From a bacterium OM1 bin76 (GTDB lineage Bacteria > Actinomycetota > Acidimicrobiia > Spongiisociales > ZC4RG35), in NCBI GenBank assembly GCA_002238785.1, contig MPNA01000007.1:15583-79582 (forward strand): 64,000 nucleotides of DNA, given 5' to 3'. The notes under the pieces were generated by a model. It had not been told where the DNA came from. It worked only from the letters and a program-made list of their open reading frames with translations, and did not search any database. The translations under genes were made by a program, and so were the position numbers. Shown here piece by piece: positions 598 to 13,557 of the stretch. Position 1 is the first letter of the stretch. Each line of letters begins with the position of its first letter.

Positions 598-1300
598 ATG
601 TGCGAGTTGTTGGTTGGCCTGGGTGAGGTGGATCTGGTGGGTGTCGAGGAGTTGGCGGGTGACCGGTTGAGAGTGACGATCAGGTCTCGTGGATCTCGTC
701 CGGTGTGCGGGGAATGTGGTGGGAGGGTGTGGTCCAAGGGCGACCAGCCGGTGCGGTTGGTGGATTTGCCGGCGTTCGGTCGGCCGGTGCGGCCTGGGGT
801 GGCGCATAACGCCGCTGGGTGTGCCCCAGACCGACGTGCGCGGTGGGGTCGTCTTGCGGAACAGGATCTGTCGGTGGCGCCGGAACGGGCCTTGTTGACG
901 TCTCGGGCAGGGCGATGGGCCACCGCTCAGGTGGGTCGGTTTGGTCGCACGGTGTCGGAGGTGGCCGAGGAGTTGGGCTGTAGTTTGGCATACGGTGAAC
1001 CGCGAGATCGTCCGGTGGGGAGACGCGCTGCTGGAAGCTGACATCGATCGGTTTGGACAGGTGGAAGCGGTGGGGGTGGACGAGACCCTGTTCTGGCGTA
1101 AGGGCCGGTGGCGGAAGAAGCAGTGGTGCACCTCGGTGGTGGACGTTGGCGGCCGTCAGTTGTTGGACATAGTGCCTGGTAGAACGGCTGAAAGCGCCGC
1201 TAGTTGGTTCCGGAACCAACCTACCGAATGGTGTGAGGCAATGTCGGTGGGCGGTGTTGGATTTGTCAGGTCCCTACCAGGTGGCCTATGACCCGAGTTT
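598..1300 (+). pseudogene. ISL3-family transposase, N-terminal fragment, frameshifted and truncated
   Basis: ORFs 466..1041 and 941..1291 carry ISL3 hallmarks: Cys-rich N-terminus (PVCGECGG), RLVDLPAFGRPVR, ...VGVDETLFWRKGRWRKKQWCTSVVDV...LLDIVPGR. A third frame continues with VLDLSGPYQVAYDP and then stops. The reading is broken where the next element begins. Confidence 0.7.
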
Positions 1301-1439
1301 GGCGGGTCAGGGGGTTTGGTGGGAGGCGATTGGTGTGTTGACCTGGGGTTTTGTGTTGTGAGGTGCTGTTCCGGCACGATTTTGTAGGGGCGACAGGTTG
1401 TTGGTGTTGTGGGGATCGGGGTGCTATTGTTGTGGGGTA

Positions 1440-2804
1440 TGTTCGCTTGAGACGACCCGGCGTCGAAGGGGCGACAAGGTTTACGAGTACTTGTCGTTGG
1501 TGGAAACGGTTCGCAAGGGGTCGAAGATCGGCCATCGGACCCTGCTGCGCTTGGGAGAGGTCACTGCTTTACGCGAATCGGGACAGTTGGGACGGATCAT
1601 TTCGGCGTTGGAACGTCACCTCCACACCGAACGCGTCGACGTTGACGGAATAATCGCCGAGGGAGCACCCGCGGTGGGAGCGGTAGCCGCCGCGGCTGCG
1701 GTCTGGAAACAGTTGGATCTCGAGGGGGTTTCTTCTCACAGGTGGGCGCGGAACGCCGTGCTGACGTTTTGGAGGATGCGGTGTTCGCGATGGTGGCCAA
1801 CCGGCTGGTAGCCCCGTGTTCGAAACGTCGGTTGCCCGAATGGACAGAACATGACGTGATCATGCCTTCTGGGTGGTCAGCGCCGTCGTTGGACCAGTAC
1901 TACCGTGCCCTGGACGCCGTCGCCGACGTCAAAGAAGAGACCGAGGAGCACCTTTACCGGCGGTTGTGCAACCTGACCAACCTGAACCTTCGGCTGGTGT
2001 GCTATGACCTGACATCCACCTATTTCGAGGGTTCCACCCGACCCTCCGACGCGTTCCCGTCGCGGGTGTTCGGGTATTGGCGGGATCATCGCTCGGACAG
2101 GCCCCAGATCGTGATCGGTCTGTTGTGCACCACAGACGGGATCCCGATAGCCCATCATGTGTTCGCGGGGAACACCAACGACGCCTCCACCCTACCCGAC
2201 GTGTTGGAAGACCTGGCCAAGAGGTTCGCGGTGGGTCGGATCTGTGTGGTTTCCGACCGGGGTCTCATATCAGCATCTAACCTGGAAACGGTCACCCAAG
2301 CGGGGTTTGATCACCTGATGGCCACCAGACTCCACCGCGATCCGATCACCGCCCAAGCACTGGCGGCTGTCGACCAGGACACCGTGTGGGTTGAGATCCC
2401 CGAACACGGTTGCAGAGCCGCGGATGTCACCCTCGAAGACGGGACCCGCACGGTGGTGGTCGAAATGCGACGTTCGTGCCCGTCGGGACACCCAACGCAC
2501 CGCCGAACTGATCGCCGCTGCCGAAACCGGGTTGTTGGCGTTGGAACATCGCGTCCGCTCGGGAAGGCTCAAAGACCCGGCCAAGATCGGGAGAGCCGCG
2601 CAACGCATCCTCGGCACCGGGCGGGTCGGGCGACTGTTCGACCTCGAAATCGGACCAGGCCGGTTTCTCTACCACTACAACGAAGAAGCCCAAGCCTACG
2701 AGAAGCTGTTGGCGGGTCGTTATGTGCTGACCACCAGCCTCACACCCGCACAAGCCGACACTGGAATGAATCCCCCCGGCTTTTGTGGAGGCTTTCTATC
2801 TTGA
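1440..2804 (+). pseudogene. IS1634-like (IS4 superfamily) DDE transposase, split over three frames
   Basis: ORF 1398..1811 has GDKVYEYLSLVETVRKGSKIGHRTLLRLGEV, typical of an IS1634 N-terminus. ORF 1742..2845 has ...LVCYDLTSTYFEG...RDHRSDRPQIVIGLLCTTDGIPIAHHVFAGNTND. ORF 2391..2804 has ...FLYHYNEEAQAYEKLLAGRYVLTTSL, a typical C-terminus. There are two frame changes. Confidence 0.7.
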
Positions 2805-2855
2805 GAGGATGGAGTCTCATGGCCAGTAATAGTTCTGTTAGGTAATGCGACTGAG

Positions 2856-3125
2856 TTGCGTGAGCGTGCTGTGCGGATGGTCCTGGAAGGCGTCCGTGAG
2901 GGGGTGTATTCCTCCGAGTGGGCAGCGATCCGGGCGGTGGCGCAGATGCTGGGACCTACTCCCGAAACGGTTCGTAAGTGGGTTCGTAAGGCCGAATCGA
3001 GGGTCTCAGCGGCAGCGGTGGACCACAAACGTCGGATCGTTGAGTTGGAACGGGAGAACCGGGAGCTGCGGCGAGCGAACGAGATCTTGAAAGCTGCTTC
3101 GGCTTTTTTCGCGCGGGAGCCCTGA
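2856..3125 (+). CDS. IS3-family transposase OrfA (HTH / leucine-zipper)
   Basis: 89-aa MRERAVRMVLEGVREGVYSSEWAAIRAVAQMLGPTPETVRKWVRKAE...RIVELERENRELRRANEILKAASAFFA, a classic IS3 OrfA. Confidence 0.8.
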   Translation: MRERAVRMVLEGVREGVYSSEWAAIRAVAQMLGPTPETVRKWVRKAESRVSAAAVDHKRRIVELERENRELRRANEILKAASAFFAREP

Positions 3126-3143
3126 TCCGCGACCGCCAAGGTA

Positions 3144-4083
3144 GTGGCTTTCATCGATCGTTATCGGACCAGGTTCGGGATGCGGGCCGATCTGTCGGGT
3201 GCCTGGGCGAGCGCAATGTCGGAATGCGCCCCTTCCACCTACTACGCCTTCAAGTCCCGTCCGCCGTCAACAAGAGCCCAGCGCGACGGATGGCTTGTTG
3301 AACAGATCCGCCGCGTGCACCAGGAGAACTATGGGGTGTACGGCGCGGTGAAGGTATGGGCACAGTTGAACCGTGAAGGCACCCGAGTGGCGCGGTGCAC
3401 AGTGGAACGGCTGATGCGAAACACCGGTCCTGCGTGGTGTTTCCCGCGGGCGGCGCAAGGTGTGCACCACCGAACCCTCCGGGACTGACTATCCGGCTGA
3501 TCTGGTGGAACGGGACTTCACCGCCGGGGCGCCAGATCGTCTTTGGGTTGCCGATCTCACGTATATTCGCACGCGGGCTGGGTGGGTGTACGCGGCGTTC
3601 ATCATCGACGTGTACTCCAAGTTCATAGTGGGATGGCAGACCGCTACCACCCTCCGCGCCAGCCTGGCCGTGGACGCGTTGGAAATGGCTTTGGCCACCC
3701 GCCGGCGTCGAAACCCCGAGAAATTGATACATCATTCGGACAGGGGAAGCCAATATCTGTCCGTGCGGTACACCACCCGTTTGGCCGAAAGCCAGATCGT
3801 TTCCTCGGTGGGAAGCCGGGGCGACAGCCTGCGACAACGCCCTGGCCGAGACCACCATCGGTCTTTACAAGACCGAACTGATCAACCAACAGGGACCATG
3901 GCAAAACCTGGACCACACCACCTTCGCCACCCTCGAGTACATCGACTGGTACAACCACCGACGCCTACACGGAGGAATCACCCCCGACAACACCTACATC
4001 CCCCCCGCCGACCACGAAACCGCCTACCATCAAACCACCCCCAGAAAACCCGCAACCACACAAACAACCCACTCTCCATGAAA
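3144..4083 (+). pseudogene. IS3-family transposase OrfB (rve integrase core), internal frameshift near 3830
   Basis: DDE core motifs are present. The reading frame jumps between ORF 3460..4194 and the +1 frame, where the conserved C-terminal segment is encoded. Confidence 0.7.
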
Positions 4084-4174
4084 CCCGGGGAGGTTCAATC
4101 GAAGACAACCTCAATCTCATGCCCCCGACGACTACACAACTGGAACAGCGCCCACGACCTCTACAAATCAACTA

Positions 4175-4207
4175 GGGAGGGCAACCACCGCTAGAGCTTG
4201 CCCTCCC
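4175..4207. repeat. Perfect 10-bp inverted repeat (GGGAGGGCAA / TTGCCCTCCC) with a 13-nt loop at the IS3 right end
   Basis: Read directly from the sequence. No following T-run, so not a canonical intrinsic terminator. Confidence 0.5.
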
Positions 4208-4480: not shown

Positions 4481-5146
4481 TCACTCGTTTTCGAAAAACG
4501 TTGTTAGGTCGAAGGCATCGTTCAATATGGCGCCAACTATCAAACTCAACAAGGTGATGGCTGCCATACTCCACCATTTACGACGGTCCTCTAATGCGGA
4601 TACTCTCTCGGCAAGCGCAGTGGGATTATAGGTTGGGCCTCTGAGGTTACTGATGTGAGAATCGCTAATATTAACTGCATTCTGTCGCGGACCACAATAT
4701 AGATCCTCAGTTGCCTTGTCGAGAGAAACGTACCACAACTGGAAAGTCCGTTGGTCTTGTGTAAGGCTGATAGATTTGGAGCCTGCATTAAACACGGCGA
4801 AGATCAGTTTGCCTTTGTAGCCAGGATCAACGTGGAAGCCAGAGACATTTATCAATCCTTGCATCTTCTTGCTCGATTTCATTGACAGCAATCCGACGGC
4901 GTTGGCGGGGATTTCTACAACTTCGGAGATCAAGAGTTGAGCGAATTGTCCAGGGGGAATATTGACTCGTTCCTTATCATCTATTTTGACTCTGATCCTG
5001 GTTCCTGCGTTGGAACTATTGGTAACCCATGCTTCGTCTCCCATCGAGAGTTCATATGAACAGTTCTTAATGTGTGACTCATCGTATGGCTCGATCAAGC
5101 TCGGTAGTCTTGTCTTGAGGGTCTCACTACTCCAGAAACCGGACAT
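4481..5146 (-). CDS. dCTP deaminase/dUTPase-fold (Dcd-like) protein with a C-terminal transmembrane anchor; catalytic Glu replaced by Ala
   Basis: 221 aa. IEPYDESHIKNCSYELSMGDEAWV and GFHVDPGYKGKLIFAVFNAG align with Dcd motifs (E. coli: HRIDPGWSGCIVLEFYN), but the LEF glutamate is an alanine. C-terminal WWSMAAITLLSLIVGAILNDAF is a predicted TM helix. Strong AAGGAGA RBS upstream. AT-richer than the flanks. Confidence 0.7.
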   Translation of the reverse strand: MSGFWSSETLKTRLPSLIEPYDESHIKNCSYELSMGDEAWVTNSSNAGTRIRVKIDDKERVNIPPGQFAQLLISEVVEIPANAVGLLSMKSSKKMQGLINVSGFHVDPGYKGKLIFAVFNAGSKSISLTQDQRTFQLWYVSLDKATEDLYCGPRQNAVNISDSHISNLRGPTYNPTALAERVSALEDRRKWWSMAAITLLSLIVGAILNDAFDLTTFFENE

Positions 5147-5294
5147 TCCTATCTCCTTAGCTATTAGGACCTATCGATTCGGAAGGTGGAAAGGCCTTAC
5201 TATCTAACCGCCTGCTACATAGATTAGGATTACTTCGCGGTTTCGCAATTCCTACTTGTGCAATCCGGCTGTCTTGGGCTCCCTCCATGTCGTG

Positions 5295-5333
5295 GGAGGG
5301 GTGTTTTGCGGAGGGGTGTTTTGCGGAGGGGTC
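5295..5333. repeat. Tandem direct repeat, about 2.6 copies of the 15-mer GGAGGGGTGTTTTGC
   Basis: Read directly from the sequence, in the intergenic gap between the TS-like gene (5514) and the Dcd-like gene (5146). Confidence 0.6.
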
Positions 5334-5513
5334 TTGCCTAGTCCATAAGAAGGCACTCGCTGGAGTGCGACGCCGGGGCGGTGAACATAGTGTTAGGGGC
5401 GGTTCGACCGATTGCTCAGGTCTTTCGGGATCTTGGGGGTTCACAGGGCCGCTTTGGAATTGGGTGAGGGATAGCCTAGCTTGAGAAGCCAGCACAACCA
5501 GTTCCATCGCACC

Positions 5514-6569
5514 TCATCTTGCTCGGCCCACTGACCTGTATTGTTGACGTTCGTTCTGCGAGCTTATGCTAACCCTCCTCAACCAACGATGCCATAACTT
5601 TCTATACACAGGATTGGTGCAGGTGGCCATAGCGTGATCATGCATCTCATCCCACCCTAGCCTCCGTGCTATTTCACTGGCCAGCACGGCAAGCATGTTA
5701 CGGAATGCCTCCGGGCCTTCATCCCAACGGACGACTCTTTCCAGTTGTGGGCGCCGTAGGCCAGGCGCGATCAGTCGCTCCATCCTTCGGCCCAACTCTT
5801 TGAATGCCGCTTCTGATTTCTCCTTGGGGAGCGCAAGCGAGTCTGTGTTTCGTAGCCGGTTTGGCGGCGTCTGTGAGGCGAATACATTCTCTTCGTCATG
5901 TTCATACATGTGCAGGCTGTCGCTCAGTTGGTGATAGGGACCACAATCGACGCCAAGCCACCCGGCCACAACCTCTTGAAGACTGGTGAACTGTACGAAG
6001 TTGTGAGGAACCCCTAAGAAGAGATCATTGCTTCGTAGTACCTGAAGCCACTCCAGCTTCCCTTCGCGGACCTTCAACAGTGCGAACACATTGCAAGGGA
6101 CATCCCGACTGGTGGGCAAACCCTCAGGGTCGGGAAGGTCGACGGACGAGTCCCAGATTTGCAGTACAACCTGCCGGGTGTCCGGGTTACTGCTTAGCAC
6201 CTGATAGGCCCGAGTTAGTTGGTCTACCCCCATGTGGTAGCGGAGTCGATGCCCATAGGCCCCATGAAGGTGGGGGCCTTCTCCCACATAGTCGGAGAGT
6301 TTGCTGTTCCACGCCCGGAGGAAAGCAAGATCGTTACGACCTGTCATGATCCAAACGATCTCGGCAATGGCGAAGGCAACATTCATGGGAGGTTGGCGGG
6401 AAACCACCCATCGTTGTCGCGGATCATTGATGGTGATGGCTGCATGGAGGATTTCTTTGGTTGCACCACCTCTACTTGGTTGGAGGAGGACACCATGGCC
6501 TGCCCGGAATGCCTCCACGACTTGCTCCCAGACTTCATCTGCGTCTTGGCCTTCAAACGCCCTAATCAT
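5514..6569 (-). CDS. Thymidylate synthase-family (ThyA / pyrimidine-nucleotide C5 hydroxymethylase-like) protein, paralogue 1, with a ~90-aa C-terminal extension
   Basis: 351 aa, colinear with ThyA: AIAEIVWIMTGRNDL (ELLWFIKGSTN), GVDQLTRAYQVLSSNPDTRQVVLQIWD (DQL..IK.NPDSRRII.SAWN), VPCNVFALLKVREGKLEWLQVLRSNDLFLGVPHNFVQF ([36 protein letters not shown]). Nucleophile Cys retained. Asn equivalent to N177 retained. PCH becomes PCN and RR becomes RQ. Confidence 0.75.
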   Translation of the reverse strand: MIRAFEGQDADEVWEQVVEAFRAGHGVLLQPSRGGATKEILHAAITINDPRQRWVVSRQPPMNVAFAIAEIVWIMTGRNDLAFLRAWNSKLSDYVGEGPHLHGAYGHRLRYHMGVDQLTRAYQVLSSNPDTRQVVLQIWDSSVDLPDPEGLPTSRDVPCNVFALLKVREGKLEWLQVLRSNDLFLGVPHNFVQFTSLQEVVAGWLGVDCGPYHQLSDSLHMYEHDEENVFASQTPPNRLRNTDSLALPKEKSEAAFKELGRRMERLIAPGLRRPQLERVVRWDEGPEAFRNMLAVLASEIARRLGWDEMHDHAMATCTNPVYRKLWHRWLRRVSISSQNERQQYRSVGRAR

Positions 6570-8247
6570 GAGATGTTCCGAGAGGAGGTATCAGGCTGTT
6601 GATGCCCCACTTGGGGGGATACCAATACTCTATTGGCTCTGTTGAGGGGCGATAGATTTGCTTGATACGGGAACGGTTGCCGATGCCTTTGAAATCGGGA
6701 TGCTTAACGCGGGCATACTTTGAGACCTCGCAGAAGAGGTTCTGGCAGTCTATGAGCTGAAGTCTTCTGCCCCAAAGGTCTACAAACCGCAGGCCGAGGC
6801 GGTCGAACTCTTCTTCCTGGCGTTCGGTGACCATTCTTATGAGTTCAGCGTCGGTCAAACCGCCCAGGTCAGTGAAACATTTACGGACGCCGTCTATCGC
6901 CCCGGGGCCAGGAACGACGAACTCCATTTCTGAGAAGTCGATAACTTCGCTGTAGTTCAGGTCGGTCACGAATTGGTAGGCAAGGAAATCGCCGATGGAC
7001 GGGTAGGAGCGCAACAAACCGAAGGCGTCCCGCATCCTGCGTGTCCCTGCGATCCTCTTGGGTAACTCGTCTGCCATCATCCGCTCGATGAGCCGGAGAT
7101 GATTGCGGTGCTTTCGGGAATGTCCGAAGACGCGCCCGGCCGATGGCATAATGTAGGCGGCGGAATAGATTGGTCGACCCTCGGCGAGTGCTTGCGACAG
7201 CACCCCGTTGTAGGCGTCGAACGAGTATGACGAGTACTCAACATCCCCCAAGGCGGCTCTGAGCAGCTCCCAAGTCCCAATCCTGTTGAAAACCTTGAAT
7301 AGCAGGGTACGAAAGAACACTTCTTCTGAGGATTGTGGACCCTGGTAGATGACGTTGCGGATGAGGTACTGGCTTACCCGATCAGAGGCTCGGTATGCGT
7401 TAGTGAACTTGAAGCGGGCCAATATCGGGTCGTCCGTCCAGGGAGGTGAACAGCCTTCGAGTCGGCGAAAGAACACTTCTTGGCGTTTCACCGCGAACCG
7501 CCAATAGGTGTCATAGACAACGGTCGGCTTCGCCGGTGAGAGGCGTGGCATTTTCGGTGGCTGGAGTGTTCTGCCATCAAGGAGTGCTGGTTGGCCACTT
7601 AGCTGAGCCACTGCCGGAGAATCTTGCCGTTCGCTGAATCTGCGTACGGTAGAAATAATCGTCTTCCACGCCATGTCAAGGGCGTGCTCAACAGACGAGT
7701 CGTTGTGTAGCGTGACCACATGGGAGCGGATCTGTTCTCGCTTCGCCAGCGCCCGATACCCGTCCCGCAGGTCATCACCATTGTCTGAATCCGCACTCTC
7801 GCGCTCTACCAGAAACACCATGTCCGGCTTGATTTGCTTCCAGTGGAGTCGCTCCAGTTCGATCATCGCCTCCAACGAGGGCTCTGACACTCCAAATGCA
7901 CCGCCATAGACCCGTGTGGACCACCAGAAGCGGTCCAAGACTATCCAAGAGCCTGTACGGAGGGCAGGCAGGATGTGCTCTTCTACGGCCTCTATATGAG
8001 CCGCAATGTGCAGGATCTGAAGACTTGTCGCGTTGACCTTGCCGAGGCCAAAGCTGGGTGCGTCGTGGTGGAGGTCATAGACCAGACGGCCCAGAGAGCC
8101 TAACTGCCTCCCTGGAAAGGATAGGTTTTCGCAGGGAACGCCCGCCTCGTGGAGGCGGTTTGTGAATAGCTCGGCAAGGGTACTCTTACCGACGCCGTCG
8201 CGCCCCTCGAACACGATGAGCCTGCCCGGGGTTTGCTGCTCTGTCAT
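6562..8247 (-). CDS. Fusion protein: N-terminal dTMP-kinase-family P-loop (d)NMP kinase plus C-terminal ~340-aa domain of unknown function
   Basis: 561 aa. The N-terminus matches Tmk: LIVFEGRDGVGKSTLAELF (FIVIEGLEGAGKTT), LSFPGRQ (TREPGGT), ILHIAAHIEAVEEHILPALRTGSWIVLDRFWWSTRVYGG ([38 protein letters not shown]), PDMVFLVE. The C-terminal part (TVVYDTYWRFAVKRQEVFFRR...ILARFKFTNAYRASDRVSQYL...GIGNRSRIKQIYRPS) matched no family I could name. Its start overlaps the next gene (ATGA). Confidence 0.7.
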   Translation of the reverse strand: MTEQQTPGRLIVFEGRDGVGKSTLAELFTNRLHEAGVPCENLSFPGRQLGSLGRLVYDLHHDAPSFGLGKVNATSLQILHIAAHIEAVEEHILPALRTGSWIVLDRFWWSTRVYGGAFGVSEPSLEAMIELERLHWKQIKPDMVFLVERESADSDNGDDLRDGYRALAKREQIRSHVVTLHNDSSVEHALDMAWKTIISTVRRFSERQDSPAVAQLSGQPALLDGRTLQPPKMPRLSPAKPTVVYDTYWRFAVKRQEVFFRRLEGCSPPWTDDPILARFKFTNAYRASDRVSQYLIRNVIYQGPQSSEEVFFRTLLFKVFNRIGTWELLRAALGDVEYSSYSFDAYNGVLSQALAEGRPIYSAAYIMPSAGRVFGHSRKHRNHLRLIERMMADELPKRIAGTRRMRDAFGLLRSYPSIGDFLAYQFVTDLNYSEVIDFSEMEFVVPGPGAIDGVRKCFTDLGGLTDAELIRMVTERQEEEFDRLGLRFVDLWGRRLQLIDCQNLFCEVSKYARVKHPDFKGIGNRSRIKQIYRPSTEPIEYWYPPKWGINSLIPPLGTSHD

Positions 8248-9059
8248 TTGCCCGCCTTTAACTGTTCCAAGATTCTCTCGACATCCCGTGCCAGTTTCTG
8301 AAGGGATCTCTTTGTGCGATCGCGTTTCGCAGGACTTGCCACGCAGGTCACCTGGGTTAGCTGCCTACCCATCTCCTGGGCCATGAAACGGCCGAGCCGG
8401 CACAAGCCCAGATAGTTACCGTAGGCACGTTCATAGATGTACTGCGTGGCATAGAACCCTGTCACCGTCAACCCGTCTGAGCCTTGCTGCGCAAACGCTA
8501 CCTGTTGAAGGCAGGGAAAGCCTCTCATACGCTGATTGGTGTGGTCCCTGTGTGGGTCAAAGATCGCCGCTTGTAATGCTGACCTGCGATGGTTGCCTCT
8601 GTGCCATGTTTGGATGATGTGTTCCAGTTGGTTGACGCTGTCCCCGTTGGCGGCGTTGCGGCCGTAGGCGATGAGGCGTTGGAAGTAGACGCCGTTCCTG
8701 TTGCTAGCGTCCTTGAGCACACGCGGCATGATTTGTCTGTAACGTCGGTATAGCTGTTGACGATCTGCTTCCGGGTTCCAGAGCGAGACGGGGAAAATGG
8801 TGTTGGCGACCTTGTGACAGGAGAGGGATTTGGCTTCGGCACCCAAGGCATCATCAAGGAGTTCACGTATTGGTGCTACTTCCAGGGGCTCCCCATGGTC
8901 GAACCCGCGAATCACGACTGTTAGAGGCGCAATCTCACTCCTGGCCATCAAGTGGAGGAACGCCCTAGCCCAGGCGACGGAGAGGTTGCCCTCTTCAATC
9001 GTAAGTGATCTACCCATCCCCAGCTTCTTCCCAGTGCCGGTACAGGGCACGCCCCACAT
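8244..9059 (-). CDS. Thymidylate synthase-fold protein, paralogue 2 (divergent; most catalytic residues other than Cys are lost; C-terminally short)
   Basis: 271 aa. VPCTGTGKKLGMGRS (DRTGTGTLSIFGHQ), NQLEHIIQTWHRGNHRRSALQAAIFDP ([26 protein letters not shown]), GFPCLQQVAFAQQGSDGLTVTGFYATQ ([24 protein letters not shown]), NYLGLCRLGRFMAQE (NIASYALLVHMMAQ). Lacks the equivalents of R166, D169 and N177. The 5' end overlaps the ImmA gene. Confidence 0.6.
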   Translation of the reverse strand: MWGVPCTGTGKKLGMGRSLTIEEGNLSVAWARAFLHLMARSEIAPLTVVIRGFDHGEPLEVAPIRELLDDALGAEAKSLSCHKVANTIFPVSLWNPEADRQQLYRRYRQIMPRVLKDASNRNGVYFQRLIAYGRNAANGDSVNQLEHIIQTWHRGNHRRSALQAAIFDPHRDHTNQRMRGFPCLQQVAFAQQGSDGLTVTGFYATQYIYERAYGNYLGLCRLGRFMAQEMGRQLTQVTCVASPAKRDRTKRSLQKLARDVERILEQLKAGK

Positions 9060-9870
9060 ACCCGCGTCGCGAAACGCGGACGAACGTAGACCAAGAATTG
9101 CCGGCTTCCAGCCGGCCGACTCCTGGGCTGGTCGCTATGAAGATAGAGCCCTGCTCAATGTCTGAAAAGGGCTCGAGGCAGACACTCTCTGGCTGCGCTC
9201 CACCTAGGACCAATATGAGGTCACCCACTTCCACATCCACGGCCCTCCCGATCCAGTGGGTATCCAACACCAAGGCGGTCTGTGACGCGTACCACCCGAG
9301 GAGCAGCGATTGAGCTTTACGGGAGCCCACTCTCAACAGCGTCCTAGCCCGCATGCCCGGTAACACTTGGAGCGCGCTTCGCAGATGGTGAACCAGCGTC
9401 GCGTATCCAACGCCAAAGTAGCCGGCAACCATAAAAGCCTGCTCGGGTGTACAGTCCTCCATGCTCCACCCTCGAAGCGCAAATGCCTTGGATACCGCCA
9501 ACTTGGGCATGAGAAGAGCACCCGCAAAGCAATCCGCCATGAACTCCTTGGGATCGAAACGAGGGTTGTCCCATTGCCCAACCAGTTCGTCGATATCCAC
9601 TCCGTCACTCTGGTTGTGGTGACCAAGTTCGTGGGCACAGGTAAACGCCCGGCGGCCGGGTGGGCGTAACGAGGAGACGATAATAGTGGGAGTGGAAACA
9701 GATAGGTACATTCCCTCCATACTGGGAAGGTCCAGAAACCGAACCTCAATGCCAAGTTTCTGAGCGAGATCGTACACAGAGACAGCGTGGTCAAGCCCGT
9801 AGCCAACCGAAAGACGGGTACGGAGGGCCGCCGCCGTTGCCTCTCGGGCTATCAATCGCCGGTTGCTCAT
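9010..9870 (-). CDS. ImmA/IrrE-family (Peptidase_M78/DUF955, CapP-like) zinc metallopeptidase
   Basis: 286 aa with HEXXH at CAHELGHH. Sits immediately downstream of, and overlapping, an XRE HTH gene, the classic XRE/ImmA arrangement. Confidence 0.8.
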   Translation of the reverse strand: MSNRRLIAREATAAALRTRLSVGYGLDHAVSVYDLAQKLGIEVRFLDLPSMEGMYLSVSTPTIIVSSLRPPGRRAFTCAHELGHHNQSDGVDIDELVGQWDNPRFDPKEFMADCFAGALLMPKLAVSKAFALRGWSMEDCTPEQAFMVAGYFGVGYATLVHHLRSALQVLPGMRARTLLRVGSRKAQSLLLGWYASQTALVLDTHWIGRAVDVEVGDLILVLGGAQPESVCLEPFSDIEQGSIFIATSPGVGRLEAGNSWSTFVRVSRRGYVGRALYRHWEEAGDG

Positions 9871-10220
9871 TCGATGTGATTTCTCGGAGCGCGGAGCGCC
9901 TGGACAAGCTGGAGAATGCGGTCAAGGTCCTCTTCTCGCAACTTGCTCAACTCCCTCGCCGCTAGCTTCACGCGATCCGCAGCCAAGCTCGACTCCTCGT
10001 CCCCCTCACCCACGATCCAAGAAATACTGACCCCGTACATCTCAGCCAGCGCAGTGAGTTCCTCGGCAGATACCCTTCTGCGAGCTGCTTCGATCTCGGA
10101 AACCGTAGGACGGTGCCAGTCCAGACTCTTGGCTACCTGACCTTGGGTGAGACCTGCCATCTCTCTCGACAGGCGAAGACGTGATGCGATTGCCTTTCGC
10201 TTCTCTTCGTATTTGGTCAT
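9867..10220 (-). CDS. XRE-family helix-turn-helix transcriptional regulator (CapH/ImmR-like)
   Basis: 117 aa: ...LRLSREMAGLTQGQVAKSLDWHRPTVSEIEAARRRVSAEELTALAEMYGVSISWIV, an HTH_3-type motif. Confidence 0.8.
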   Translation of the reverse strand: MTKYEEKRKAIASRLRLSREMAGLTQGQVAKSLDWHRPTVSEIEAARRRVSAEELTALAEMYGVSISWIVGEGDEESSLAADRVKLAARELSKLREEDLDRILQLVQALRAPRNHIE

Positions 10221-10223
10221 CCT

Positions 10224-10508
10224 TTAGGCCTCAGAGCCGACATAGGAACAAAGGGAGTCCGCTATCTCGCCAACCGACAATGCACGCTTCCCATCCTCAG
10301 AAATGAAGGGGTTGTAGTTGCCGGGAAGCTCCACCTTTAGGGACTCCGAAAGCATGACGGTCGCTTCCACCCCGCTAAGGCTGTCGAAGCCCTCCACCCC
10401 AAACACCGGGCACGTTGACGCATCTATGCCAGCACTTGACCGCCCGCTCACCTCTTGGACCTCGACGATGACTTGAACCACCCTCTTCAGGATCTCTTGC
10501 TTGTTCAT
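10224..10508 (-). CDS. Small carrier-protein-like (ACP/PCP-fold) protein, first gene of the operon
   Basis: 94 aa. LKRVVQVIVEVQEV...FGVEGFDSLSGVEATVMLSESLKVELP resembles the ACP DSL phosphopantetheine-attachment motif and helix pattern. AGGAGG RBS 5-11 nt upstream of the ATG. This assignment is tentative. Confidence 0.4.
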   Translation of the reverse strand: MNKQEILKRVVQVIVEVQEVSGRSSAGIDASTCPVFGVEGFDSLSGVEATVMLSESLKVELPGNYNPFISEDGKRALSVGEIADSLCSYVGSEA

Positions 10509-10526: not shown

Positions 10527-10543
10527 GGTAAGATTATCTTACC
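10527..10543. promoter_or_regulatory. Perfect palindrome GGTAAGAT-T-ATCTTACC about 19 bp upstream of the operon start codon; candidate XRE operator
   Basis: Read directly from the sequence. 8-bp arms with a 1-nt spacer, just upstream of the RBS of the first gene of the minus-strand operon. Confidence 0.45.
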
Positions 10544-10853
10544 ATAAGAAGCCGAGCGGTCAAAACATAACCCAATATTGCTCACCGACAGACCGGTCCT
10601 AAAGGGACAGCGTTGTTGCCCGTCCCGCATTGCTTTGGTAGGCGGCGTTCGGGCTGGCTACCGTCAGGATGGGCGGTTCGGATGTATGCGGGGCTCCTGA
10701 TATTTGCTTGGAGAGCATCTTGATTGGGAGACAACGAGCTAGGTCCAGATCCGTGTTGGAGAGTGGTGGCAACAGGCCGCTGTAAGGAGTCGGCGATTCT
10801 TTGTCAAGAGTCTCCTGGGGGCGGGTGTAACTGTATCCTGACGGACTGTCATC

Positions 10854-11431: not shown

Positions 11432-11523
11432 CGGAGGCGGACGGGAATCGAACCCGCCGGGGATCGTTTGACCCCCCACCGGTTTTGAAGACCGGGGAGC
11501 CCACCAGGCGCTCGCTCGCCTCC
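11432..11523 (-). tRNA. selC: tRNA-Sec (selC-like), anticodon UCA, 92 nt, class II
   Basis: Reverse complement: GGAGGCGAGCGAGCGCCTGGTGGGCTCCCCGGTCTTCAAAACCGGTGGGGGGTCAAACGATCCCCGGCGGGTTCGATTCCCGTCCGCCTCCG. Anticodon stem CCGGT/ACCGG with loop CUUCAAA (identical to the E. coli selC loop), a long variable arm, T-loop TTCGATT, and 13 nt (8+5) between T-loop and discriminator. The 8th acceptor pair is an A.C mismatch. CCA is not encoded. Confidence 0.7.
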
Positions 11524-11557: not shown

Positions 11558-11992
11558 GTGAATGAGATCATGGGCGATCCCGAGAAGATGCAGGATCAGC
11601 AGGCGGCCCTGCGGGTCACCGGACTGGTGGACACGCCCCGCCGGTGGGATCTGGAGGCAATCTCTGGGCTTTCGGGGCAAGTTGCCGAGGCCGGGGGACG
11701 GGGTGTCTCGGCCGGTTCTCTCTTGGAGGCCAGTGGGCCGCGGGGCGGGTTTGTGTCGGTGGAGAGCGAAGATGGTGCCTACCGGGCTTCCATCCCGATT
11801 AAGGAGTTGTCCTCCAAGGGAGTGGTGGTATATGGGTTGGGCGACGGGCAACTTCCCAGGGAGAGGGGAGGTCCCTTCCGGATGCTGGTGCCGGGCGGCC
11901 ACACCCTGTGCTGGAACGTGAAGGGGGTGGGGGAGATGCGGGTGACCGCTGAACAGGAGCCTGACAGCGTGCCTGCCAATCCGACCCACTGA
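11558..11992 (+). CDS. Small molybdopterin-binding oxidoreductase (Oxidored_molyb, sulfite-oxidase-fold) domain protein
   Basis: DGAYRASIPIKEL..GVVVYGLGDGQLPRERGGPFRMLVPGGHTLCWNVKGVGEMRV matches the SUOX/YedY Mo-domain core (LAY.MNGEPLP..HGFPLRLVVPG.YG.KWL..I). GGGAGGG RBS before GTG 11558. Confidence 0.55.
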   Translation: MNEIMGDPEKMQDQQAALRVTGLVDTPRRWDLEAISGLSGQVAEAGGRGVSAGSLLEASGPRGGFVSVESEDGAYRASIPIKELSSKGVVVYGLGDGQLPRERGGPFRMLVPGGHTLCWNVKGVGEMRVTAEQEPDSVPANPTH

Positions 11993-12327
11993 GGCGTGGA
12001 CACGCTTCGGTGGGTGTCGTGATGAGGGTTGAGATGACGACGGTGAGGTCCACGATGGCAAGTCTTCGTAACGGGGGAACTGTCCGCCTGTAGGCCTCTT
12101 CAGTCTGCTGAGAGTCGTTCTGTCTGGTTACGCGTCTCGGGGCACTTCTTGGTTGATTTGTAACGGTTGTTCCGGGTGTCGTTGGGAGTTGTTCTGGCTT
12201 TTGCCCTGTACCGAGACGAAAAGTCGACTGAGGGGAGGACTCCAAACATTAAGTTATTAGTGTTTGTTTTCATAACTTAGTGTTGTGTAGAGGTGTTTTG
12301 TCACAGGACCTGTGCATACTGGTGGAT

Positions 12328-13557
12328 ATGAAAACAGAGTCTGCGAACCGGGCGGCCGTGAACAGGGCGCGTCTGCTGAGGCCTACCATGCCGGTGGCCG
12401 AGGCGTCGGTGGAACAGCTTAGACAGCGGATAAGGTCCACGATCCGCGTTCAGAACCAGGCTGCTGCGGACCGTGCCGAAGCGGTAGCGGAACTGGATCG
12501 ACGCCAGGGTACAGAATTGGTGGAAACCGTGCTGCGGGAGGATGGGCTGTTGGGCAGACGGCGGGCCCGGTCGGAGGTGGAAACTGCCAAAGAGTTGGAA
12601 GAGTTGCCCAAGACCCGGGAGGGTTTCCAAAAGGGAGACATCTCTGCGGACAACGCCCGCATCCTGGCCAGTGCTAACCAGCGGGGAACCATCAAAGAGG
12701 ACGAGTTGTTGGATGATGCCCGTTCTCAGTCTCCTGATAAGTTCGCCCGGTCGGTCCGAAAGCACGAACAACGACAGTCCCGTGATGATGGTGTTTCGAG
12801 GTTGGAGCATCAGCGTTCCCACCGGTTCGCGAAGATCACCACCGATGCCGACGATGGGATGACCGTGTTGTATGGGCGGTTCGACCCTGTTACGGGCGCT
12901 CGGATCGAAACGGCGGTGTCGGCGATGATGAACCAGTTGTGGCACAAAGAGGACCCCACCGATCGGGCCACGGCTCCACAGCGGATGGCCGACGCCCTAG
13001 CAAAACTTCTTACTCGTCAAGGGAAGGGCGGGGAGGGTCGTTCTCAGGATGTGCGACTGTTGTTGATCGCCGACTACGACGCGGTCAGCGGACGGTTGGG
13101 CAACCCCCGCTTGGAGAACGGCACCCCGGTTCCGGCGGGGACGTTGCGCCGTTTGGGGTGTGATGCTCAGGTACTGCCTGCTGTCTTCTCGGGTGGTTCG
13201 ATACCGCTGGACCTGGGGCGGGCCCGGCGTACCGCCAGCGGTTCCCAACGCGCTGCTTTGGTTGCCCGCGACAGACACTGTGTGGGTTGCGGCGCCAAAG
13301 CGTCCTGGTGTCAGGCTCACCATATCGTTCATTGGCAGGACGGAGGCCCCACCAGTTTGGAGAACATGTGCCTGCTGTGCAGCCGGTGTCACCACAAGGT
13401 TCATGACCAAGACTGGACCGTGCACCAAACCCCAACCGGGAAGTACACGCTACGTCGGCCGCCGATCACCGACTGGCGACGACCCTCCCGCCAAACCAAC
13501 CACCACCCCCGCCGTCGGCGACGCACCCGCAAACACCCCATCAAACAAAGAAAATGA
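12328..13557 (+). CDS. DUF222 + HNH endonuclease domain protein (REP13E12-like)
   Basis: C-terminal CVGCGAKASWCQAHHIVHWQDGGPTSLENMCLLCSRCHHKVH is an HNH motif. The N-terminal region is DUF222-like, as commonly seen in actinobacteria. Confidence 0.7.
   Translation: MKTESANRAAVNRARLLRPTMPVAEASVEQLRQRIRSTIRVQNQAAADRAEAVAELDRRQGTELVETVLREDGLLGRRRARSEVETAKELEELPKTREGFQKGDISADNARILASANQRGTIKEDELLDDARSQSPDKFARSVRKHEQRQSRDDGVSRLEHQRSHRFAKITTDADDGMTVLYGRFDPVTGARIETAVSAMMNQLWHKEDPTDRATAPQRMADALAKLLTRQGKGGEGRSQDVRLLLIADYDAVSGRLGNPRLENGTPVPAGTLRRLGCDAQVLPAVFSGGSIPLDLGRARRTASGSQRAALVARDRHCVGCGAKASWCQAHHIVHWQDGGPTSLENMCLLCSRCHHKVHDQDWTVHQTPTGKYTLRRPPITDWRRPSRQTNHHPRRRRRTRKHPIKQRK

What the first reader, a model, noticed from the sequence alone, without database searches (positions are those of the whole stretch)
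6562..8247. Tmk-like kinase fused to a 340-aa domain of unknown function (possible nucleotide/DNA modification transferase)
The N-terminal 220 aa match dTMP kinase motif-by-motif (P-loop, substrate-binding FPGR, DRF/Y, LID region). The C-terminal 340 aa (TVVYDTYWRFAVKRQEVFFRR...GIGNRSRIKQIYRPSTEPIEYWYPPKWG) matched nothing I can name. In phage thymidine-hypermodification clusters, P-loop kinases occur next to or fused with aGPT-pyrophosphorylase-type transferases. I infer an analogous arrangement here but cannot support it from sequence alone.
Basis: inference. Interest (0 to 1): 0.65.

Follow-up and report, generated by a model that had tools for sequence, protein, structure and literature searches.

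The report
Kinase–hypermodification enzyme in inducible defence cassette
The gene is real and encodes a thymidylate-kinase-like enzyme fused to an already catalogued "DNA base hypermodification" domain. It sits in a widespread, probably DNA-damage-inducible bacterial operon related to a recently validated anti-phage system whose chemistry is still unknown.

Summary
The ORF exists at 6562-8247 on the minus strand (561 aa).

**Domains.** The N-terminus is a Tmk-family P-loop kinase. The "unknown" C-terminal 340 aa is a full-length match to Pfam PF18723, HMUDK_hel (E 1e-111). I take this to be the former aGPT-Pplase clade 1, a renaming recalled from memory. It is the paralogue of the phage amino-acid:DNA transferase.

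**Not a misassembly.** The fusion occurs in at least 567 species-representative bacterial genomes.

**Not a phage cluster.** The gene lies in a tightly packed operon:
- ACP-like protein
- CapH-like repressor
- CapP-like protease
- divergent thymidylate-synthase-fold protein
- the fusion
- MilA-like predicted dUMP hydroxymethylase
- (after a 370-nt gap) a membrane-anchored dCTP-deaminase-like protein

A palindromic operator upstream of the operon recurs in other phyla. In 22 of 80 related loci the same fusion is joined to TIR and Nmad2 genes. That arrangement corresponds to E. coli DS-4, a defence system validated in 2026 with no known mechanism.

**Best reading.** This is an inducible pyrimidine-C5 modification module used for anti-phage defence.

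**Novelty.** New variant of a known kind. Interest is moderate.

The parts
6562..8247 (-). The finding: a 561-aa ORF encoding a Tmk-family kinase fused to PF18723 (HMUDK_hel / aGPT-Pplase clade 1).
   Evidence: ORF and translation. Pfam domains. Same architecture in more than 120 clusters and at least 567 species genomes.
7648..8247 (-). Kinase domain (about aa 1-200). P-loop G15-T23 is at nt 8179-8205. DRF 105-107 is present. Invariant His84 replaces the base-contacting Arg of genuine Tmk, and His80 replaces the stacking Phe.
   Evidence: PF02223 E 2.8e-15. TIGR00041 at 56 bits, below the 83.25 cut-off. Residue alignments to E. coli and P. falciparum Tmk. Family invariants in A3.
6685..7521 (-). 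PF18723 domain (aa 243-521), all-alpha. Invariant across fused and stand-alone relatives: R255, F281, R286, D289, F421, Q425, D429, Y432, E440, N503, C506, E507, K510. The Cys506-Glu507 codons are at nt 6727-6732.
   Evidence: Pfam E 1.4e-111. 115-sequence alignment A2. AlphaFold2 pLDDT 94.2, pTM 0.91. Foldseek top hits gp46/PUGT then HhH glycosylases. gp46 catalytic Cys247 falls on C506 in the only hhalign segment, which is weak at E 0.11.
8244..9017 (-). TS257: a divergent thymidylate-synthase-fold protein of 257 aa, counting from the internal Met (the longest ORF starts at 9059). It has an invariant RGFPC169 motif. Its stop codon overlaps the start of the fusion gene by 4 nt.
   Evidence: No Pfam hit. 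TIGR03283 E 2.2e-11. A 100%-identical cluster is named 'thymidylate synthase [Acidimicrobiia bacterium]'. AF2 pLDDT 87.7. Foldseek probability 1.00 to ThyA, MilA and the phage dCMP hydroxylase. Present in 47 of 62 complete related loci.
5514..6569 (-). TS351: a MilA-like thymidylate-synthase homologue, predicted dUMP (or UMP) 5-hydroxymethylase. Cys159 is catalytic. Asp156 sits at the ThyA L143 position, Asp182 at D169 and Asn190 at N177. It overlaps the end of the fusion gene by 8 nt.
   Evidence: PF00303 E 1.3e-21. Profile against PDB: MilA CMP hydroxymethylase E 2e-44, compared with ThyA at about 1e-22. Best phage relatives are thymidylate-synthase homologues of PaMx11-like, SPO1-like, CP-51 and ViI-like phages, one of them annotated deoxyuridylate hydroxymethyltransferase. 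26% identical to DS-4A. Residue rules from PMC13326640.
9010..9870 (-). CapP-like (ImmA/IrrE, M78) metallopeptidase.
   Evidence: PF06114 E 1.3e-18. PADLOC capP E 4.7e-17. Present in 49 of 62 related loci.
9867..10220 (-). CapH-like Xre-family HTH repressor.
   Evidence: HTH_31 and HTH_3. PADLOC capH E 6.9e-12. Present in 47 of 62 related loci.
10224..10508 (-). First gene of the operon: a 94-aa acyl-carrier-protein-like protein with an invariant GFDS43 motif.
   Evidence: A family profile hits almost only ACPs in the PDB (44 of 48; best E 3.3e-4), with the phosphopantetheine Ser aligned to S43. Weak PP-binding hit. Present in 42 of 62 related loci.
10527..10563 (-). Promoter-like site (TTGACC-16-TAAGAT, 10563 to 10536). 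Its -10 element lies inside a perfect 8+8 palindrome, GGTAAGAT-T-ATCTTACC (10527-10543), which is the presumed CapH-like operator.
   Evidence: The same GTAAGA-N-TCTTAC palindrome is the best palindrome upstream of the ACP-like gene in 24 of 52 related loci from many phyla, plus a few with swapped half-sites.
4481..5146 (-). dCTP-deaminase/dUTPase-fold protein with a C-terminal hydrophobic helix. It is a probable accessory gene, lying downstream after a 370-nt gap.
   Evidence: PF22769 E 4.9e-16. TIGR02274 at 70 bits, below the 92.8 cut-off. Homologues with a C-terminal hydrophobic helix occur in 16 of 80 related loci at E<=1e-20, often immediately upstream of the fusion.
11433..11523 (-). tRNA-Sec, flanking the low-GC island on the right. 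This is context and not part of the system.
   Evidence: ARAGORN. Rfam RF01852, 76.7 bits. GC profile.
941..4194 (+). IS fragments flanking the island on the left: an ISL3 fragment, a DDE_Tnp_1 transposase and an IS3-type orfA/orfB. This is context.

Best explanation
The ORF encodes a bifunctional enzyme: a Tmk-family nucleotide kinase fused to a PF18723 domain. PF18723 is the helix-hairpin-helix, DNA-glycosylase-like paralogue of the phage amino-acid:DNA transferase.

It is the core of a horizontally mobile operon: ACP-like, CapH-like, CapP-like, TS257, the fusion, TS351, and then DCD-TM. This operon is a variant of the modular system that includes E. coli DS-4, an experimentally validated anti-phage system.

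Proposed working, all steps inferred:
1. The CapH-like repressor holds the operon off through the palindromic operator.
2. Single-stranded DNA or DNA damage during infection activates the CapP-like protease, and the operon is expressed.
3. The DCD-like enzyme supplies dU nucleotides, and the MilA-like TS351 converts dUMP to 5-hydroxymethyl-dUMP.
4. The Tmk-like domain phosphorylates this nucleotide. Its thymine-contacting residues are changed, but its phosphate-binding DRF motif is kept. The product can then enter the dNTP pool and replicating DNA.
5. The PF18723 domain uses its invariant Cys506-Glu507 (plus D429 and K510) to attack C6 of the 5-substituted uracil, as the clade-2 transferase does. 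This converts or traps the base and makes replicating phage DNA non-functional.

Shown here: domain identities, operon structure, recurrence of the operon and operator in other phyla, and homology to DS-4 components.
Inferred: induction, substrates, products and the anti-phage outcome for this variant.
For: **Domain identity.** (PF02223 plus PF18723, E 1e-111). The AF2 model has pLDDT 94. Foldseek places gp46/PUGT first, then HhH glycosylases. C506/E507/K510 are invariant over 115 fused and stand-alone relatives. The catalytic Cys247 of gp46 aligns to C506 (weak). Cys plus Glu are essential in clade 2, which acts by Michael addition at C6 (PMC8989533; PMC11472151).

**Operon.** Gene ends overlap by 4-8 nt. 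Among 62 complete related loci, CapP occurs in 49, CapH in 47, TS257 in 47, TS351 in 43 and the ACP-like gene in 42. The conserved operator overlaps the -10 element. CapH and CapP match the PADLOC models. The CapP+CapH mechanism is described in PMC13228613.

**Link to DS-4.** The C-terminal domain is 29% identical to DS-4C (E 5e-35). TS351 is 26% identical to DS-4A (E 4e-18). 22 of 80 loci have the same fusion next to TIR+Nmad2, as in DS-4. One locus (L051) carries every module in a row, and two loci have kinase and PF18723 as separate genes. DS-4 is validated and replicated (PMC13092281).

**Hydroxymethylase call.** MilA is the best PDB relative (E 2e-44). Asp sits at the L143 position, Asn at N177 and Asp at D169, read against the rules in PMC13326640. 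The best phage relatives are thymidylate-synthase homologues of PaMx11-like, SPO1-like, CP-51 and ViI-like phages.

**Kinase as nucleotide kinase.** It is in the Tmk family, not PF18748/PF18747. DS-4B is likewise a T4-type dNMP kinase (PF21448).

**Cellular rather than viral.** At least 567 species genomes carry it. Only 11 IMG/VR loci do, and only 2 of those are near full length. No phage record covers 80% or more of the protein.
Against: - There is no experiment on this variant. DS-4 itself has no mechanism. The one raw row I saw shows only about a 0.9 log10 drop in plating efficiency, plus small plaques, on lambda.
- The window lacks the TIR and Nmad2 genes of DS-4, so a different effector logic is possible.
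- The clade-1 protein M6 gp55 was dispensable for the reconstituted reaction, so a catalytic role for PF18723 is unproven.
- Similarity to gp46 is weak: TM about 0.35, Foldseek E 0.04, hhalign E 0.11.
- PADLOC has no model for the TS-like or PF18723 proteins.
- The roles of the ACP-like protein and of the second TS-fold protein are unexplained by this scheme.
- The kinase could instead phosphorylate the base in DNA.
- TS351 could act on ribo-UMP.
- 12 of 62 loci have neither TS351 nor DCD nearby.
Confidence: 0.55

Rival explanations
1. Pool manipulation only. The cassette defends by diverting dCTP and dUMP into 5-hydroxymethyl-dU nucleotides, or otherwise depleting dTTP and dCTP. DNA is never modified. 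The PF18723 domain binds or processes free nucleotides.
For: - Both kinases (Tmk here, T4-type DNMK in DS-4) belong to free-nucleotide kinase families.
- dCTP-deaminase-like genes recur in the cassette.
- MazG/MazG_C lies next to one related cassette.
- From my own knowledge, dCTP deaminase is an established nucleotide-depletion defence.
Against: - PF18723 has an HhH DNA-glycosylase-like fold, and its nearest solved relative binds dsDNA and flips out a base.
- Many loci have no DCD gene.
Confidence: 0.2
2. Self-protection. This is a phage- or mobile-element-derived thymidine hypermodification pathway that modifies the element's own (or the host's) DNA to evade restriction, as in phages M6, PaMx11 and ViI.
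For: - The gene order kinase, PF18723, TS-like is the same as PaMx11 gp49-gp50-gp51.
- The region is a low-GC island flanked by IS elements and a tRNA gene.
- One IMG/VR contig carries the cassette.
Against: - There are no phage structural or replication genes in the window. Housekeeping genes follow directly.
- No clade-2 transferase, PLP or radical-SAM tailoring enzyme was found.
- The cassette is overwhelmingly in cellular chromosomes.
- It is under a damage-inducible repressor/protease pair typical of immune operons.
- A homologous system defends E. coli.
Confidence: 0.1
3. Small-molecule pathway. As in mildiomycin or bacimethrin biosynthesis, a TS-like hydroxymethylase makes a hydroxymethyl-pyrimidine nucleotide. 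This is then phosphorylated and coupled (ThiD/ThiE-like chemistry) into a toxic or signalling metabolite, possibly carried on the ACP-like protein.
For: - TS351's closest solved relative is MilA, by a wide margin.
- In type-B loci a TIR-fold protein follows the hydroxymethylase, as the glycosidase MilB follows MilA (the MilA/MilB analogy is from my own knowledge).
- An ACP-like carrier is encoded in the operon.
- Lee et al. note ThiD as the nearest chemical precedent for the hydroxymethyl kinase.
Against: - The window has no TIR or glycosidase gene.
- There is no adenylation, ligase or phosphopantetheinyl-transferase gene in the operon.
- The PF18723 fold and its relatives point to DNA as substrate.
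Confidence: 0.1
4. It is an ordinary housekeeping dTMP kinase with an accessory domain, or a chimeric ORF produced by misassembly.
For: Tmk motifs are present.
Against: - The score is below the equivalog cut-off.
- The base-contacting Arg and Phe are replaced by invariant or near-invariant His.
- The gene lies in a low-GC island.
- The same fusion is found in four other assemblies and hundreds of genomes.
Confidence: 0.03

Closest known systems
E. coli defence system DS-4 (DefensePredictor; DeWeirdt, Mahoney & Laub, Science 2026; PMC13092281)
   Same: - PF18723 protein: 29% identity, E 5e-35.
- TS-like protein: 26% identity, E 4e-18.
- A nucleotide-monophosphate-type kinase is adjacent to or fused with PF18723.
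- In 22 of 80 related loci the very same Tmk::PF18723 fusion sits beside DS-4-like TIR and Nmad2 genes.
   Different: - The kinase is Tmk-family and fused here. In DS-4 it is a separate T4-type DNMK.
- The window has no TIR or Nmad2.
- Instead it has an ACP-like gene, CapH/CapP-like regulators with a conserved operator, a second TS-fold protein and a DCD-like protein.
- The defence phenotype has not been tested for this variant.
Phage thymidine-hypermodification clusters (M6, PaMx11, ViI; Lee et al. 2018 and 2021)
   Same: - The order kinase, PF18723 protein, TS-like hydroxymethylase matches PaMx11 gp49-gp50-gp51.
- TS351's best phage relatives come from PaMx11-like, SPO1-like, CP-51 and ViI-like phages.
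   Different: - No clade-2 transferase (PF18724) and no PLP, radical-SAM or FAD tailoring enzymes.
- The kinase is not of the phage 5-HMUDK families.
- The location is chromosomal, and the operon is repressor-controlled.
- No phage record has the fused protein.
PaMx11 gp46 / PUGT, the clade-2 aGPT-Pplase (PF18724, amino-acid:DNA transferase; PDB 8z2m, 8z2n)
   Same: - It is the nearest solved structure to the C-terminal domain model.
- A cysteine lies at the equivalent place near the C-terminus, next to an acidic residue.
- Both have an HhH glycosylase-like helical architecture.
   Different: - About 11% sequence identity, TM about 0.35, and no PF18724 hit.
- Clade 1 has no demonstrated activity.
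Thymidylate kinase (Tmk, PF02223 / TIGR00041)
   Same: P-loop, FP(G)R and DR(F/Y) motifs and overall domain.
   Different: - Below the equivalog cut-off.
- Arg to His84 and Phe to His80 in the thymine pocket, conserved family-wide.
- Fused to PF18723.
- Encoded in a mobile island.
MilA CMP 5-hydroxymethylase (mildiomycin pathway; PDB 5jnh, 5b6d). This concerns the neighbouring TS351.
   Same: Best PDB relative of TS351 (E 2e-44). The Asp three residues before the catalytic Cys is shared.
   Different: TS351 has Asn where MilA has Asp at the pyrimidine-specificity position, so uracil rather than cytosine is predicted.
CapH/CapP-regulated immune operons (CBASS and others; Lau et al. 2022; PMC13228613)
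   Same: An Xre repressor plus M78 peptidase pair lies upstream of the effectors and matches the PADLOC models. A palindromic operator overlaps the promoter.
   Different: - The effectors are nucleotide/DNA-modification enzymes.
- An ACP-like gene precedes capH.
- Only the peptidase half of the CapP model is matched.

Membership tests
PF18723 HMUDK_hel (aGPT-Pplase clade 1) | Passes the Pfam gathering score over the whole model. | tested here: met
   372.8 bits against a cut-off of 25; profile positions 2-281 of 281; E 1.4e-111.
PF18723 HMUDK_hel (aGPT-Pplase clade 1) | All-alpha, HhH DNA-glycosylase-like fold. | tested here: met
   AF2 pLDDT 94.2, all-helical. Foldseek gives gp46/PUGT, then MagIII, OGG, AlkA and AGOG. 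Scores are weak: E 0.04-4, TM 0.2-0.45.
PF18723 HMUDK_hel (aGPT-Pplase clade 1) | Genomic association with a P-loop kinase and a thymidylate-synthase-like enzyme. | tested here: met
   Fused to a kinase. TS-like genes lie on both sides. The same holds in PaMx11 and DS-4.
Phage 5-hmdU DNA kinase (5-HMUDK; M6 gp54, PaMx11 gp49) | Kinase domain belongs to the PF18748 or PF18747 P-loop families. | tested here: not met
   No hit to either family at E<=1. The domain scores as Thymidylate_kin. PaMx11 gp49 itself gives only a weak PF18748 hit.
Phage 5-hmdU DNA kinase (5-HMUDK; M6 gp54, PaMx11 gp49) | Transfers phosphate to the 5-hydroxymethyl group of hmU in DNA. | not testable with these tools
   Needs an enzyme assay on hmU-DNA compared with hmdUMP.
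Thymidylate kinase (equivalog) | Passes the NCBIfam TIGR00041 cut-off. | tested here: not met
   56 bits against a cut-off of 83.25.
Thymidylate kinase (equivalog) | P-loop Lys and DR(Y/F/H) Arg. | tested here: met
   K21, D105 and R106 are invariant in 37 family members and align with Tmk structures.
Thymidylate kinase (equivalog) | Thymine-contacting Arg ('AAR' in E. coli Tmk) and stacking Phe. The roles of these residues are from my knowledge of Tmk structures. | tested here: not met
   They align to His84 (invariant) and His80 (at least 90% conserved).
Amino-acid:DNA transferase (PF18724, aGPT-Pplase clade 2) | Pfam PF18724 match. | tested here: not met
   No hit. As a control, gp46 gives PF18724 at E 1.6e-27.
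Amino-acid:DNA transferase (PF18724, aGPT-Pplase clade 2) | Catalytic Cys with a neighbouring acidic residue. | tested here: inconclusive
   C506-E507 are invariant in 115 sequences. gp46 Cys247 aligns to C506, but only in a 22-column hhalign segment with E 0.11.
DS-4 anti-phage system | PF18723 protein and TS-like protein homologous to DS-4C and DS-4A. | tested here: met
   E 5e-35 and E 4e-18.
DS-4 anti-phage system | TIR (DS-4D) and Nmad2 (DS-4E) genes. | tested here: not met
   Neither is present in the 64-kb window. Both lie beside the orthologous fusion in 22 of 80 related loci.
DS-4 anti-phage system | Reduces phage plating. | not testable with these tools
   Shown only for the E. coli system.
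CapH/CapP-regulated operon | Xre repressor plus M78 peptidase pair matching the CapH and CapP models, with an operator at the promoter. | tested here: met
   PADLOC E 6.9e-12 and E 4.7e-17. A palindrome overlapping the -10 element recurs in other phyla.
CapH/CapP-regulated operon | ssDNA-activated cleavage of the repressor. | not testable with these tools
   Only residues 18-132 match the capP model. The C-terminal sensor domain was not verified.

The most novel reading that the evidence does not exclude
The cassette is a widespread, damage-induced immune system that turns phage-type thymidine hypermodification chemistry against invading DNA. In it, the conserved ACP-like protein supplies the nucleophile: its phosphopantetheine thiol, or Ser43 itself. 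The Cys506-Glu507 PF18723 domain would join this nucleophile to phosphorylated 5-hydroxymethyl-uracil. The immune effector would then be an enzymatically made protein-DNA (or protein-nucleotide) adduct. The only indirect chemical support is that the clade-2 enzyme M6 gp51 accepts a thiol (beta-mercaptoethanol) as nucleophile.
Probability: 0.07. Interest if true: 0.9.

Novelty: new variant of a known kind. Interest (0 to 1): 0.55.

Why it matters
Thymidine hypermodification enzymes have been studied as phage counter-defence tools. Here the same enzyme families sit in a repressor-controlled bacterial operon that is common across phyla and related to a system shown to protect E. coli.

If the reading is right, bacteria use base-modification chemistry offensively. 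The clade-1 'pyrophosphorylase' domain, whose function has been open since 2013, would become testable in a defined six- or seven-gene cassette with a known switch.

The cassette also offers a natural fused kinase plus HhH enzyme and two uncharacterised thymidylate-synthase-fold proteins. These are candidates for new DNA or nucleotide chemistry.

Tried and rejected
- **Iyer et al. 2013**, which defined the aGPT-Pplase clades, is not in the paper library. The equation PF18723 = clade 1 rests on two things. Pfam gives PaMx11 gp50 as PF18723 and the known clade-2 gp46 as PF18724. The renaming itself is from my memory.
- **PADLOC** has no model for the PF18723, TS257, TS351 or DCD proteins. Only a candidate-system model (PDC-M51B) touches the kinase domain.
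- **Sequence search of the PDB** with the whole protein found only Tmk structures.
- **Profile comparison with gp46** gave one short, weak segment.
- **The 116-aa ORF** between TS351 and DCD (5157-5507) is Pro/Ser-rich, has low GC3 and has no relatives in 80 loci. I treat it as non-coding.
- **TS257 active-site residues:** I could not place the pyrimidine-specificity residues of TS257 reliably against ThyA (one search aligns only up to the catalytic Cys), so its substrate is left open.
- **Prophage origin** was considered and rejected for lack of any phage gene.
- **Literature searches** for this cassette (CapH/CapP with thymidylate synthase; Nmad2; hypermodification plus defence) found only the DefensePredictor paper.

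Full report
**1. The observation.** The window has an ATG-initiated ORF of 561 codons at 6562-8247 on the minus strand.
- Residues 13-150 match Pfam Thymidylate_kin (E 2.8e-15, 56.9 bits, cut-off 27).
- They align with solved thymidylate kinases with the P-loop, FP(G)R and DRF motifs in register.
- The score is below NCBI's equivalog threshold for a genuine dTMP kinase (56 against 83.25 bits).
- In the alignments, the Arg of the Tmk 'AAR' motif and the preceding aromatic residue correspond to His84 and His80. From my knowledge of Tmk structures these contact O4 of thymine and stack on the ring. His84 is invariant and His80 nearly invariant in 37 family members.
- The domain is therefore a Tmk-family kinase with an intact phosphoryl-transfer apparatus and an altered base pocket.

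**2. [quoted passage not shown]
- As controls, PaMx11 gp50 is PF18723. The experimentally defined clade-2 transferase gp46 is PF18724 ('ADDT'). The experimentally defined kinase gp49 gives only a weak PF18748 hit.
- PF18723 is therefore the second, 'paralogous' aGPT-Pplase of the phage clusters. Lee et al. report that M6 gp55 was not needed for the reconstituted reaction and that the role of this paralogue was not established (PMC8989533).
- An AlphaFold2 model of residues 225-561, built on 115 fused and stand-alone relatives, is confident (pLDDT 94.2, pTM 0.91) and all-helical.
- Foldseek against the PDB puts gp46/PUGT first (probability 0.92, E 0.04, TM about 0.35). HhH DNA glycosylases follow: MagIII, OGG, AlkA and AGOG. 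The scores are weak but point the same way.
- Thirteen residues are invariant across all 115 sequences, including D429, N503, C506, E507 and K510.
- In clade 2 a Cys and a nearby Glu are essential. The Cys (gp46 Cys247) attacks C6 of the pyrimidine.
- The only segment hhalign finds between the two families places Cys247 on C506 (E 0.11). This is suggestive, not proof.

**3. Not a misassembly, and not rare.**
- The identical gene with identical neighbours occurs in four independent assemblies. One of them is GCA_001753035.1 contig MKWU01000180.1, the probable source.
- In a fifth assembly (L091) the same locus and neighbours are present but the gene is called truncated.
- The neighbouring protein is 100% identical to one that NCBI assigns to an Acidimicrobiia MAG.
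- More than 120 protein clusters at 60-90% identity share the two-domain architecture.
- A scan of one genome per species found at least 567 genomes with it. They span Chloroflexota, Acidobacteriota, Planctomycetota, Verrucomicrobiota, Proteobacteria, Cyanobacteria, Bacteroidota, Actinomycetota and others.
- By contrast, no record among 50,697 phage genomes covers 80% or more of the protein. IMG/VR yields 11 loci, only two near full length.
- The PF18723 domain as such is large: 4374 50%-identity clusters at E<=1e-3.

**4. Surroundings.** The gene lies in a low-GC island (52-58%, against 63-66% in the rest of the window).
- On one side are IS fragments. On the other are a bona fide tRNA-Sec and then housekeeping genes (RecO, UppS, GlyRS, DnaG).
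- It is the fifth gene of a minus-strand operon whose genes overlap by 4-8 nt:
  - a 94-aa protein;
  - an Xre repressor and an M78/IrrE peptidase, which match the PADLOC CapH and CapP models (E 7e-12 and 5e-17);
  - a 257-aa protein (TS257);
  - the fusion;
  - a 351-aa thymidylate-synthase homologue (TS351);
  - after 370 nt, a dCTP-deaminase-fold protein with a C-terminal hydrophobic helix.
- **The 94-aa protein is ACP-like.** A profile of ten family members hits almost only acyl carrier proteins in the PDB (44 of 48; best E 3.3e-4). The phosphopantetheine serine aligns to an invariant Ser43 in GFDS.
- **TS257 has a thymidylate-synthase fold.** It has no Pfam hit but matches the archaeal thymidylate-synthase model (E 2e-11). 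It keeps an invariant Pro-Cys. Its model (pLDDT 87.7) matches ThyA, MilA and a phage dCMP hydroxylase with probability 1.00.
- **TS351 is predicted to be a uracil-nucleotide hydroxymethylase.** It is much closer to MilA, a CMP hydroxymethylase (E 2e-44), than to any ThyA (about 1e-22). Its best phage relatives are thymidylate-synthase homologues of PaMx11-like, SPO1-like, CP-51 and ViI-like phages, one annotated deoxyuridylate hydroxymethyltransferase. Using the residue rules summarised in PMC13326640, it has the catalytic Cys, Asp at the L143 position (hydroxymethyl rather than methyl), Asp at D169 (not a 5-hydroxylase) and Asn at N177 (uracil rather than cytosine). Whether the sugar is ribo or deoxy cannot be told.

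**5. The cassette recurs across distant phyla.** I called ORFs in the 80 related loci and searched them with the window's proteins and the DS-4 proteins.
- Among 62 loci with enough flank, CapP-like occurs in 49, CapH-like in 47, TS257 in 47, TS351 in 43, the ACP-like gene in 42, a DCD-like gene in 18, and TIR and Nmad2 in 15-16.
- Two arrangements dominate. Type A is ACP, CapH, CapP, TS257, fusion, then TS351 or DCD or nothing. Type B is fusion, TS351, TIR, Nmad2.
- Hybrids exist. One Bifidobacteriaceae MAG (L051) has every module in a single row. Two loci have kinase and PF18723 as separate genes.
- The DCD-like protein with a hydrophobic tail recurs in 16 loci (E<=1e-20), often between TS257 and the fusion.
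- Upstream of the ACP-like gene the window has a promoter-like site. Its -10 element lies inside a perfect palindrome, GGTAAGAT-T-ATCTTACC. The same palindrome is the strongest one upstream of the ACP-like gene in 24 of 52 loci from unrelated phyla. This supports a conserved operator for the Xre repressor.

**6. Link to a validated defence system.** The DefensePredictor study validated and replicated a five-gene E. coli system, DS-4. Its genes are a thymidylate synthase homologue, a dNMP kinase, a PF18723 protein, a TIR protein and an Nmad2 protein. The paper did not dissect its mechanism.
- The window's C-terminal domain is 29% identical to DS-4C (E 5e-35).
- TS351 is 26% identical to DS-4A (E 4e-18).
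- The kinases are analogous but not homologous: Tmk here, T4-type DNMK in DS-4.
- Type-B loci are DS-4 with the window's fused kinase, so the window's operon belongs to the same modular family. It lacks TIR and Nmad2 itself.
- CapP+CapH pairs are known to derepress immune operons when ssDNA from DNA damage or infection activates the protease (PMC13228613).

**7. How it most likely works.**
- Shown: domain identities, operon organisation, recurrence across phyla, the operator, and homology to DS-4.
- Inferred: derepression on infection; supply of dU nucleotides by the DCD-like enzyme; hydroxymethylation by TS351 (and some C5 chemistry by TS257); and phosphorylation of the modified nucleotide by the Tmk-like domain.
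- I favour a free-nucleotide substrate for the kinase. Both this kinase and DS-4B come from nucleotide-monophosphate kinase families, and the DRF phosphate-binding Arg is kept.
- The PF18723 domain is inferred to act on the 5-substituted uracil, probably in DNA, through Cys506/Glu507.
- The result would be replicating phage DNA that carries an aberrant or trapped base.
- My estimates: about 0.98 that the domain assignment is right; about 0.7 that the operon is a defence cassette of the DS-4 family; about 0.3 for the specific chemical scheme.
- The scheme does not explain the ACP-like protein or the need for two TS-fold proteins.

**8. Rivals** are listed separately: nucleotide-pool manipulation without DNA modification; self-protective hypermodification by a mobile element; a MilA/ThiD/ThiE-like small-molecule pathway; and a housekeeping gene or artefact. 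The last is effectively excluded.

**9. Novelty and score.**
- The protein family is catalogued (Pfam, NCBI names), and a related system has been validated.
- I found no description of the type-A cassette in the searchable literature. That cassette comprises the ACP-like gene, CapH/CapP-like regulators with a conserved operator, a cryptic second TS-fold enzyme, a Tmk-type fused kinase and a membrane-anchored DCD-like protein.
- The function of the clade-1 domain remains open.
- I rate this a new variant of a known kind, interest 0.55.

Noticed in passing
window 10224-10508 (-): The first gene of the operon encodes a 94-aa acyl-carrier-protein-like protein with an invariant GFDS motif. No phosphopantetheinyl transferase, ligase or synthase is nearby. 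An ACP in an immune or nucleotide-modification operon is unexplained.
   Followed up: partly
window 10527-10543: A perfect palindrome, GGTAAGAT-T-ATCTTACC, overlaps the -10 element of the operon promoter. The same motif recurs upstream of the orthologous gene in about half of 52 loci from unrelated phyla.
   Followed up: yes
window 8244-9059 (-): This ORF has no Pfam hit but is a thymidylate-synthase-fold protein (AF2 plus Foldseek probability 1.00) with an invariant Pro-Cys. The likely true start is the internal Met at 9017. Its substrate is unknown.
   Followed up: yes
window 4481-5146 (-): A dCTP-deaminase/dUTPase-fold protein with a C-terminal hydrophobic (membrane?) helix. The tail is conserved in homologues attached to the same cassette in at least 16 other genomes.
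   Followed up: partly
window 11433-11523 (-); L006 10871-12010: The island abuts a tRNA-Sec gene. In an unrelated genome (L006) the same cassette abuts selA. This suggests selenocysteine loci as an insertion hotspot.
   Followed up: no
window 941-4194 (+) and about 11558-11992 (+): IS debris lies to the left of the island: an ISL3 fragment, a DDE_Tnp_1 transposase and an IS3-type orfA/orfB. A 144-aa fragment of a molybdopterin oxidoreductase lies next to the tRNA. The locus appears heavily rearranged.
   Followed up: no
window 12280-13557 (+): A DUF222-HNH endonuclease gene, of a kind common in actinobacteria, lies just outside the island.
   Followed up: no
L091 11467-12456: In one other assembly of the same lineage (GCA_026713945.1) the fusion gene is called as 329 aa with only the PF18723 part. 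This is either a frameshift or sequencing error, or a natural disruption of the kinase half.
   Followed up: no
L002-L005 (Caldilineaceae MAGs): In these loci a 280-aa DCD-like gene takes the position that TS351 occupies in the window. The cassette sits beside MazG/MazG_C and a type I restriction-modification system, a setting like a defence island.
   Followed up: partly
P0331, P0361, P0366, P0386, P0428: The PF18723 domain also occurs in other fusions: with a DNA methylase domain (PF01555), and with long unidentified C-terminal extensions in proteins of 650-1000 aa.
   Followed up: no
L009 (Brevibacterium phage LuckyBarnes) 1846-5861: The closest phage relative of the C-terminal domain (36% identity) is a stand-alone gene next to two glycosyltransferases and a 517-aa TS homologue. 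No kinase is annotated. This may be a different hypermodification route.
   Followed up: no
window 5157-5507 (-): A Pro/Ser-rich 116-aa ORF fills the gap between TS351 and the DCD-like gene. Some assemblies call it as a gene, but it has no relatives in other loci. It is probably non-coding spacer.
   Followed up: yes
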